DNA of 64,000 nucleotides, taken from NCBI GenBank assembly GCA_000004695.1, contig CM000150.2, positions 1,824,001-1,888,000 of the forward strand. The letters run 5' to 3'. The DNA is from Dictyostelium discoideum. Taxonomy: Eukaryota. Both the position numbers and the translations under genes were made by a program. Shown here one piece after another: positions 7,301 through 7,793 of this stretch (its first letter is position 1; every line of letters starts with the position of its first letter). The notes under the pieces are model-generated. The model did no database searches. It worked only from the letters and a program-made list of their open reading frames with translations, and had not been told where the DNA came from.

Positions 7301-7793
7301 TTTTTTTTTTATCTATTTATATATATATATATATATTATCCCTATAATTATCTTTAATTCTTTTTTTTTTATATAAATATATATGTGTATATATAAATAG
7401 ATAAAAAAAAAAAAAAAAAAAAATTTAATACATACATCTTGATTTGTTAAATTTTTGCGAGTATTATCTGTATTATCAGTATAACGAATTAATAGTTTAT
7501 CCATATCCCTTGAACTATATTGAAAAAGTTTATTATTACTACTAAAAACAATCATTGCAATCTCACAATCACAAAGAATTGATAACTCCATTGCTTTTTT
7601 AATTAAACCATTCTTTCTTTTTGTAAATGTTGCCTGTCTATTTCTTTCATTAGAAATCTTTTCAATTGTAATTTTATTCCTTCCCACTATAATTTTTTAA
7701 ATTAAAAAAAAAAAAAAAAAAAAAAATTATATAAGTTAGATTTGTCGAAAGTAAAAATAATAATAAAATAAAAAAAAAAAAGAATAACTTACT
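4316..7793 (-). CDS. MEF2-type MADS-box transcription factor of the Dictyostelium mef2 family (I cannot tell mef2A from mef2B). The CDS is join(7793, 7436..7686, 4316..7210). It has a MADS+MEF2 domain followed by a ~960-aa Asn/Gln/His-rich tail.
   Basis: The translated exon reads (M)[70 protein letters not shown]. This matches the MEF2 signature [40 protein letters not shown]...DMDKVLLKYTEY. The exon ends CAAGAT|GTATGT. The next exon starts after ...CAAATAG at 7210 in the same frame and runs to TAA at 4316. No in-frame ATG precedes GRNKI. An upstream GTAAGT donor at 7787-7792 and the acceptor TATAG|TGGGAAGG give A|TG GGA AGG = MGR. Confidence 0.75.

What the first reader, a model, noticed from the sequence alone, without database searches (positions are those of the whole stretch)
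7436..7793. MEF2 gene: the initiator ATG appears to be split by an intron (A|TG)
The MADS-box exon starts ...TATAG|TGGGAAGGAATAAAATT (TG GGA AGG AAT AAA = MGRNKI). It has no in-frame ATG, and a TAA lies two codons upstream. About 100 nt upstream on the same strand is a perfect GTAAGT donor (7787-7792) preceded by an A, so splicing would create A|TG. The 'M' shown in the ORF track at 7687 is actually GTG. A start codon assembled by splicing is unusual and would make translation strictly splice-dependent. The gene also carries an extreme ~960-aa Asn/Gln/His-rich tail after the MEF2 domain.
Basis: inference. Interest (0 to 1): 0.55.

Follow-up and report, generated by a model that had tools for sequence, protein, structure and literature searches.

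The report
Split start codon in Dictyostelium mef2A
The start codon of the Dictyostelium discoideum mef2A (srfC) gene really is split by a 106-base intron (A|TG), but 5'-RACE showed this and it was published in 2013, so it is a correct rediscovery and not a new finding.

Summary
On the minus strand, exon 2 ends ...TATAAAA (A = 7793). A consensus donor GTAAGT follows at 7792-7787. The intron ends ...TTATAG at 7687, and the MADS-box exon starts TG GGA AGG AAT AAA at 7686. Splicing makes AAAA|TGGGA, and A(7793)+7686..7436+7210..4316 reads as one 1048-aa ORF.

The window is D. discoideum mef2A (srfC). Thirteen published primers map exactly, and the paper's coordinate -511 puts +1 at 7793. Galardi-Castilla et al. 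[quoted passage not shown] Their Figure S2 shows the same junctions.

Two details were slightly off. The in-frame TAA is four codons upstream of the GTG, not two. The tail is Asn/Gln/Ser/Pro-rich, with His only 4.8%.

One addition is new here. The same 'cAG|TGGG' arrangement, with no genomic ATG, occurs in MEF2-like genes of Micromonas pusilla and in several environmental eukaryote contigs. One environmental gene was seen both spliced and unspliced. The intron position may therefore be old. In that gene the split codon is an internal Met, and a candidate model suggests the same for Micromonas.

The parts
8329..8607 (-). mef2A exon 1 (5' UTR only, transcripts from the distal promoter Pr1; most upstream TSS at -814 = 8607)
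   Evidence: Published RACE coordinates converted with +1 = 7793. Figure S2 shows the exon ending ...AATATAAG before gtaaaa.
8164..8328 (-). Intron 1, inside the 5' UTR (GTAAAA...ACAG, 165 nt, 86% A+T). The paper gives -536 to -371.
   Evidence: The 3' end at 8164 matches -371 exactly. The 5' end differs by 1 nt from the paper because of a G|G ambiguity at the junction.
7794..8163 (-). Exon 2, untranslated part. The proximal promoter Pr2 starts transcription inside it (most upstream TSS at -144 = 7937).
7809..7877 (-). Upstream ORF in exon 2: ATG 7877-7875, 22 codons (MYIFKVKNQIKTSYIYISIIQI), stop TAA 7811-7809. It is in the same frame as the main AUG and ends 15 nt before A7793. It is present in both mRNA isoforms when transcription starts at or above -144.
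   Evidence: The function was not tested.
7793..7793 (-). Last base of exon 2, which is the A of the initiator AUG
   Evidence: RACE in PMC3640940.
7687..7792 (-). Intron 2, which splits the start codon (phase 1 in codon 1): GTAAGT...TTATAG, 106 nt, 91% A+T, no ATG inside
   Evidence: RACE.
7436..7686 (-). Exon 3: the TG of the start codon plus codons 2-84 (MADS box and MEF2 domain), ending ...CAA GAT before donor GTATGT
   Evidence: Pfam SRF-TF E = 1.2e-25. Residue-for-residue match to human MEF2C/A/D/B chains, E about 5e-31.
7211..7435 (-). Intron 3 (GTATGT...AAATAG, 225 nt, phase 0 after Asp84)
   Evidence: The donor at this position is visible in many homologues whose exon ORFs read through as 'D|V...'.
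4316..7210 (-). Exon 4: codons 85-1048 plus the stop (4318-4316). This is the Asn/Gln/Ser/Pro-rich low-complexity tail.
   Evidence: The paper's reverse primer ends at codon 1046 of this numbering.

Best explanation
The minus strand of window 4316..8607 is the Dictyostelium discoideum mef2A (srfC) gene. Its initiator codon is not contiguous in the genome. The A is the last base of the otherwise non-coding exon 2 (7793). The TG are the first two bases of the MADS-box exon (7686-7685). A canonical U2-type GT-AG intron of 106 nt lies between them. Both mRNA isoforms, from the distal and the proximal promoter, pass through this junction. Splicing creates AAAAUGGGA, an AUG in the A-rich context typical of Dictyostelium, and translation from it yields a 1048-aa MEF2-type MADS-box protein. 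Its Met1-Gly2-Arg3 N-terminus corresponds residue for residue to that of animal MEF2. Shown: the sequence anatomy (here) and the spliced junction (published 5'-RACE). Inferred: that translation starts at this AUG, that unspliced RNA is essentially untranslatable into Mef2A, and that the 22-codon uORF dampens translation.
For: Sequence anatomy. Thirteen published mef2A primers map exactly and in the expected order. Primer CACTCACTTACATATCACACACC, published as -511, starts at 8304, which sets +1 = 7793. The paper states that RACE placed the second intron between the A and the T of the initiation codon, and its Figure S2 shows the same exon/intron borders. The spliced model gives an uninterrupted 1048-aa ORF whose codon 1046 coincides with the paper's 'amino acids 4 to 1046' primer. 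In the spliced mRNA an in-frame TAA lies 18 nt upstream of the AUG, so no N-terminal extension is possible. No other GT in the 477 nt upstream is a consensus donor or gives an in-frame ATG. Met1 aligns to Met1 of human MEF2C/A/D/B (E about 5e-31, against 2e-9 for SRF). A chance A|GTAAGT within 300 nt has probability about 0.014.
Against: Nothing contradicts it. The limits are as follows. I could not inspect RNA-seq reads or the GenBank entry KC852901 myself, so the transcript evidence is taken from the paper. No protein N-terminal sequencing or ribosome profiling is cited, so use of the spliced AUG is inferred. The exact 1048-aa sequence was not found in the protein collection, and that collection returned no dictyostelid MADS proteins at all. 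The curated database model therefore could not be compared directly.
Confidence: 0.96

Rival explanations
1. Non-AUG initiation: the protein starts at the in-frame GUG (7687-7685) on unspliced or intron-retaining RNA, and the upstream GTAAGT is irrelevant.
For: The GTG sits exactly at the Met1 position with A at -3 and G at +4 (ATA GTG G), which is a favourable context for near-cognate initiation. The intron contains no ATG that would intercept scanning ribosomes.
Against: RACE products from both promoters were spliced at A|TG. GUG initiation is inefficient in eukaryotes (general knowledge). The donor and acceptor are consensus sites, and the intron has the typical Dictyostelium length and composition. 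At most this is a minor leak pathway, not the main mechanism.
Confidence: 0.02
2. A different upstream exon supplies a complete in-frame ATG, giving an N-terminal extension. In that case the split Met codon would be internal.
For: This is the arrangement seen in the marine environmental gene L030-L033, which has a conserved 12-codon extension MGKAKRLPSTST before the split Met. The same arrangement is a candidate in Micromonas. In D. discoideum an upstream ATG (7877) is in the same frame.
Against: In D. discoideum the ORF from that ATG stops at TAA 7811-7809, 15 nt before A7793. RACE found only exon 1, exon 2 and exon 3. No alternative GT donor in 7687..8163 yields an in-frame ATG.
Confidence: 0.01
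3. Translation starts at a downstream AUG (for example Met33 in ...KKAMELS), and the A|TG junction is coincidental.
For: None specific. It is the default that a gene predictor would choose if it missed the 1-nt exon contribution.
Against: It would delete the N-terminal arm and half of the MADS box. Those residues are conserved 1:1 with human MEF2 from residue 1 and across about 70 environmental homologues that all begin MGR(N/K)KI. The spliced AUG is the first in-frame AUG after a stop and sits in an AAAAUGG context.
Confidence: 0.01

Closest known systems
Published gene structure of D. discoideum mef2A/srfC (Galardi-Castilla, Fernandez-Aguado, Suarez, Sastre 2013, BMC Dev Biol 13:12; GenBank KC852901)
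   Same: It is the same locus. Primers, TSS coordinates, intron 1, the A|TG intron and the exon 3 donor all coincide with the window.
   Different: Nothing of substance. Intron 1's 5' border differs by 1 nt from the paper's number because of a G|G ambiguity. The paper does not discuss the uORF or whether the intron position is conserved.
Start-codon-disrupting introns in general (phase 1 or 2 introns in codon 1; Nielsen & Wernersson 2006, BMC Genomics 7:256)
   Same: A spliceosomal intron lies inside the ATG, so the initiation codon exists only in the spliced mRNA.
   Different: That survey covers vertebrates, arthropods, fungi and plants and calls such introns 'relatively rare'. It does not cover Dictyostelium. 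The common class is phase 0, immediately after the ATG, which this intron is not.
Animal MEF2 transcription factors (MEF2A-D)
   Same: A MADS box followed by a MEF2 domain, starting at Met1-Gly2-Arg3. Alignment from residue 1 gives E about 5e-31. Homologues also share a phase-0 intron after the MEF2 domain and, in some, an intron after ...ERNRQ.
   Different: The tail is a 962-aa Asn/Gln-rich low-complexity region typical of Dictyostelium. I did not examine the position of the start codon relative to introns in animal genes.
MEF2-like genes of Micromonas pusilla CCMP1545 and of unidentified environmental eukaryotes (L018 group, L033/L035, L085, L089)
   Same: Genomic DNA has GTG instead of ATG at the Met1 position, preceded by a canonical acceptor (cAG|TGGG). 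This is an intron at the identical position and phase.
   Different: In L030-L033 the split Met is internal, because a conserved 12-codon upstream coding exon precedes it. A candidate 24-codon extension exists in Micromonas. Donors in L018, L085 and L089 are only predicted.

Membership tests
MEF2-type (type II-like) MADS-box transcription factor | MADS box (SRF-TF domain) | tested here: met
   Pfam PF00319, E = 1.2e-25, 89 bits against a cut-off of 26, residues 10-57.
MEF2-type (type II-like) MADS-box transcription factor | MEF2 domain directly after the MADS box, and closer to MEF2 than to SRF/MCM1 | tested here: met
   Residues 1-95 align to human MEF2C 1-94 (E 5.4e-31), and also to MEF2A, MEF2D and MEF2B. 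SRF and MCM1 reach only about 2e-9 and cover only the MADS core.
MEF2-type (type II-like) MADS-box transcription factor | The protein begins at the MADS box (Met1-Gly2-Arg3 N-terminal arm) with no leader | tested here: met
   The spliced model has an in-frame TAA 18 nt upstream of the AUG. Met1 aligns to Met1 of the MEF2 chains.
Canonical U2-type GT-AG spliceosomal intron of Dictyostelium | Consensus donor GTAAGT and acceptor AG, short length and very high A+T content | tested here: met
   GTAAGT at 7792-7787, TTATAG ending at 7687, 106 nt, 91% A+T, compared with 75% in the flanking coding exon.
Canonical U2-type GT-AG spliceosomal intron of Dictyostelium | Actually removed from the mRNA | not testable with these tools
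   No D. discoideum transcript data were reachable here. Taken from the published 5'-RACE (PMC3640940).
Split (splice-assembled) start codon | The exon junction falls inside the initiator ATG, and no alternative in-frame ATG is available upstream | tested here: met
   The junction is A(7793)|TG(7686-7685). The only upstream in-frame ATG (7877) is closed by TAA 7811-7809. No other donor gives an in-frame ATG.
Split (splice-assembled) start codon | Translation initiates at the assembled AUG | not testable with these tools
   Inferred from the conservation of Met1. No proteomic or ribosome-profiling data were examined.

The most novel reading that the evidence does not exclude
The A|TG intron of mef2A may not be a Dictyostelium oddity. 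It may be an old, position-conserved phase-1 intron in the codon that opens the MEF2-type MADS box, shared by Amoebozoa, green algae (Micromonas and a Pyramimonas-like contig) and other unidentified protists. On this reading, some lineages have an upstream exon that encodes a short N-terminal leader, so the split Met is internal. Dictyostelium lost or never had that leader, and the same junction became a split initiator codon. A by-product is that automated annotations of such genes are wrong. One example is the Micromonas model P0020, which reads through the presumed intron as ...AAAVGRKKI.
Probability: 0.4. Interest if true: 0.35.

Novelty: already known. Interest (0 to 1): 0.15.

Why it matters
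For the finding as given, the value is mainly quality control. A reader working from the sequence alone correctly recovered a gene-structure detail that took 5'-RACE to establish. The case also shows why gene predictors mis-annotate such loci, because a 1-nt coding contribution from a UTR exon is invisible to ORF-based calling. Biologically, a splice-assembled AUG means that Mef2A can be made only from spliced RNA. Together with two promoters and a 22-codon uORF, this gives the gene several layers where expression could be controlled, but none of this has been tested. The modest new point is that the same intron position recurs in distant eukaryotes. That would make it a useful marker for the deep history of MEF2-type MADS-box genes and a flag for mis-annotated N-termini.

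Tried and rejected
(1) Dictyostelid orthologues and the paralogue mef2B/srfD, to test conservation within Dictyostelia. This was not possible. The protein collection returned no dictyostelid MADS proteins for the N-terminal query, no exact match to the 1048-aa model and no hits at all for a non-repetitive C-terminal segment.

(2) Direct transcript evidence from Logan or other assemblies for D. discoideum. It was not obtainable for the same reason. P0001/L001 is a spliced transcript of an unidentified relative (66% identity) with an ordinary AAAAATGGGC start in the mRNA. Without its genome, this says nothing about an intron.

(4) The profile search meant to identify the lineages of L018 and L033 was swamped by animal MEF2. 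Only the link of L085 to Pyramimonas and Micromonas emerged.

(5) Phrase searches for 'split start codon' and similar wording found almost nothing relevant. The general statement on rarity comes from Nielsen & Wernersson 2006.

(6) Alternative gene models were considered and rejected: other donors, an upstream in-frame ATG, and a downstream Met.

(7) CAG 0-1 nt before an intact ATG in L002, L003 and L024 was noted as a possible slid version of the same intron. It was left untested, and it could be chance.

Full report
**1. What is in the sequence**

Read on the minus strand, the region shows ...ATATATAAAA|GTAAGTTATTC... The last exon base is A at 7793 and the hexamer GTAAGT is at 7792-7787. 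106 nt downstream it shows ...AAAAAATTATAG|TGGGAAGGAATAAAATTACA..., with the acceptor AG at 7688-7687 and the exon beginning at T7686.

The mechanical ORF list reports the 124-aa [13 protein letters not shown]... at 7687 with start codon GTG, not ATG. Upstream of that GTG the frame reads TAA AAA ATT ATA GTG.

The exon ends ...CAA GAT|GTATGT at 7436/7435. The only acceptor that keeps the frame open is ...CAAATAG|TATAATAGAG at 7211/7210. Joining A(7793) + 7686..7436 + 7210..4316 gives 3147 nt with a single terminal stop, a protein of 1048 aa.

**2. Is it more than chance?**

The window is 23% G+C. GTAAGT occurs 12 times and AGTAAGT 6 times on both strands of the 64 kb. The chance of an A|GTAAGT within 300 nt upstream on the correct strand is therefore about 0.014.

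The 477 nt between the acceptor and the start of exon 2 contain only eight GT dinucleotides. Only the one at 7792 has a consensus donor. No alternative donor would bring in an in-frame ATG.

The intron is 106 nt, 91% A+T and free of ATG. The flanking coding exon is 75% A+T. This fits short, very A+T-rich Dictyostelium introns (general knowledge).

**3. Identity of the gene and published evidence**

A literature search found Galardi-Castilla et al. 2013 (PMC3640940). Thirteen of the fifteen primers listed there map exactly in the window, on the expected strands and in the expected order. One of them is TGGGAAGGAATAAAATTACAATTGAAAAG, at 7686-7658.

The primer published as starting at -511 begins at 8304. 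[quoted passage not shown]

The paper reports 5'-RACE on AX4 RNA (GenBank KC852901). It found two clusters of transcription starts, with the most upstream at -144 and -814, which are 7937 and 8607 here. [quoted passage not shown] Here that is 8328..8164, and the 3' end matches exactly.

[quoted passage not shown] Its Figure S2 prints the same junctions...ATATATAAAAAgtaagttatt...aattatagTGG(G)AAGGAATAAAATT, with machine-read text that is slightly noisy.

The paper's expression construct, 'amino acids 4 to 1046', ends at codon 1046 of my 1048-aa model.

**4. What the protein is**

The N-terminal 127 aa hit Pfam SRF-TF at E = 1.2e-25. They align from residue 1 to residue 1 of human MEF2C, MEF2A, MEF2D and MEF2B chains in the PDB (E about 5e-31 to 1e-28). 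SRF and MCM1 score only about 2e-9.

This is a MEF2-type MADS-box factor whose Met1-Gly2-Arg3 corresponds to the animal MEF2 N-terminus. That supports the spliced AUG as the true start. In the spliced mRNA an in-frame TAA lies 18 nt upstream, so no leader is possible.

The 962-aa tail is N 32.5%, Q 13.6%, S 10.8%, P 7.6% and H 4.8%. The paper also annotates polyasparagine and polyglutamine tracts. This is ordinary for Dictyostelium.

**5. Mechanism**

Shown: the genomic anatomy (here) and the spliced junction (published RACE).

Inferred:
- The AUG exists only after intron 2 is removed, giving AAAAUGGGA.
- Mef2A synthesis therefore depends on splicing.
- The unspliced RNA carries GUG at the same position, with A at -3, G at +4 and no AUG in the intron. 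A weak near-cognate leak cannot be excluded, but it is unlikely to matter.
- Both mRNA isoforms carry a 22-codon uORF. Its ATG is at 7877-7875 and its stop TAA is at 7811-7809, in the same frame as the main AUG and ending 15 nt before it. The long isoform has a further 9-codon uORF. These may reduce or regulate translation. This is untested and is not discussed in the paper passages I read.

**6. How unusual is it?**

Nielsen and Wernersson 2006 surveyed intron positions near the start codon. [quoted passage not shown] The phenomenon is a known, uncommon class and not a new kind of feature.

**7. An extension beyond the finding**

I could not obtain dictyostelid orthologues, because the protein collection returned none. 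Instead I fetched 80 environmental loci that encode close relatives of the MADS exon.

Of 76 loci aligned from residue 1, 71 have an intact ATG. Many of these are probably transcripts, but long AT-rich genomic contigs are among them. Five have GTG preceded by A, that is ...cAG|TGGG, as in Dictyostelium. The cases are:

- **L018/L020/L021/L022.** This is one gene seen in four metagenomes, with about 60% G+C. It has AATCA|GTACGTCT 114 nt upstream of CAACAACAG|TGGGCAGG. The gene's next donor is also GTACGT, and the contigs differ by an indel inside the putative intron.
- **L035.** It is 100% identical to L033 from TGGGTCGG onward and diverges exactly at the A|TG boundary...TTTGATTTGTCAG|TGG against ...TCTACTTCTACCA|TGG. 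The two look like the unspliced and spliced forms of one gene. In L030-L033 an upstream in-frame ATG adds a 12-codon leader, MGKAKRLPSTST, that is conserved through synonymous changes. The split Met is therefore internal there.
- **L085 and L089.** Two further genomic contigs show ...TGTGCAG|TGGGGAGG (L085) and ...ACCGCAG|TGGGCCGC (L089). Their donors are ambiguous. The L085 protein resembles the Pyramimonas obovata transcript protein P0126, which starts MGRKKI.
- **Micromonas pusilla CCMP1545 (L090).** The genome has ...GCCGCCGCAG|TGGGGCGCAAGAAG. The deposited model P0020 reads through the presumed intron as ...AAAVGRKKI. The nearest consensus donor, CAGCGA|GTGCGTCC, is 194 nt upstream. It would form A|TG and is preceded by an in-frame 24-codon ORF, MGPPKSKPPKNTDVTPSPPVKSTA.

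A phase-1 intron in the codon that opens the MADS box thus occurs in an amoebozoan, in green algae and in other unidentified eukaryotes. This suggests an old intron position, although parallel gain is not excluded. Only one of these cases (L033/L035) has transcript-level support. I rate this reading at about 0.4.

**8. Verdict**

Novelty is 'already known', because the exact statement is in a 2013 paper with RACE evidence. Interest for the finding as given is low (0.15). The possible deep conservation of the intron position and the uORF are minor leads.

Noticed in passing
window 7809-7877 (minus strand): There is a 22-codon upstream ORF (MYIFKVKNQIKTSYIYISIIQI) in exon 2 of mef2A. It is in the same frame as the main AUG, and its TAA ends 15 nt before the A of the split start codon. 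The long (distal-promoter) 5' UTR has a second uATG at -466 with a 9-codon ORF. These may control translation. The paper passages I read do not mention them.
   Followed up: partly
L033 1-420 vs L035 1-460 (also L030-L032): Two marine environmental contigs are identical from TGGGTCGG onward but diverge exactly at A|TG. L035 has an acceptor-like ...TTTGATTTGTCAG there. They appear to be the spliced and unspliced forms of one MEF2-like gene with an intron at the same position as in Dictyostelium. In this gene a conserved 12-codon leader (MGKAKRLPSTST) precedes the split Met.
   Followed up: partly
L090 1330-1620 (Micromonas pusilla CCMP1545, GG663747.1): The genomic MEF2-like gene has GTG at the Met1 position, preceded by ...GCCGCCGCAG. 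The deposited protein model (P0020) reads through the presumed intron (...PVAAAVGRKKI) and is probably mis-annotated. A donor CAGCGA|GTGCGTCC 194 nt upstream would form A|TG and attach an in-frame 24-codon leader.
   Followed up: partly
L018 1380-1510 (also L020, L021, L022); L085 2225-2535; L089 50-250: Three more unidentified eukaryotic MEF2-like genes lack a genomic ATG at Met1 and have cAG|TGGG there. Candidate donors preceded by A exist (L018: AATCA|GTACGT, 114 nt; L085: GAAGA|GTATGT, 300 nt). There is no transcript evidence for them.
   Followed up: partly
L002 335-345; L003 118-128; L024 about 1488-1503: Several homologues with an intact ATG have an acceptor-like CAG 0-1 nt before it (cattcag|tATG, atatcag|cATG, cgcacag|ATG). 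This may be a 5'-UTR intron at almost the same place, or it may be chance.
   Followed up: no
P0021, P0026, P0063; L089 296-346; L090 1655 onward: Many homologues show an intron after ...ERNRQ| inside the MADS box and a phase-0 intron after the MEF2 domain (...D|GT). D. discoideum mef2A keeps the second (7436/7435) but lacks the first.
   Followed up: no
window 39435-39506 (+): A single tRNA-Thr(AGT) gene is the only tRNA that ARAGORN found in the 64-kb window.
   Followed up: no
protein collection: The large protein collection returned no Dictyostelium MADS-box proteins. It gave no exact match to the 1048-aa Mef2A and no hit to its non-repetitive C-terminal segment. The source organism and its relatives seem to be absent from, or not retrievable in, that resource.
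   Followed up: yes
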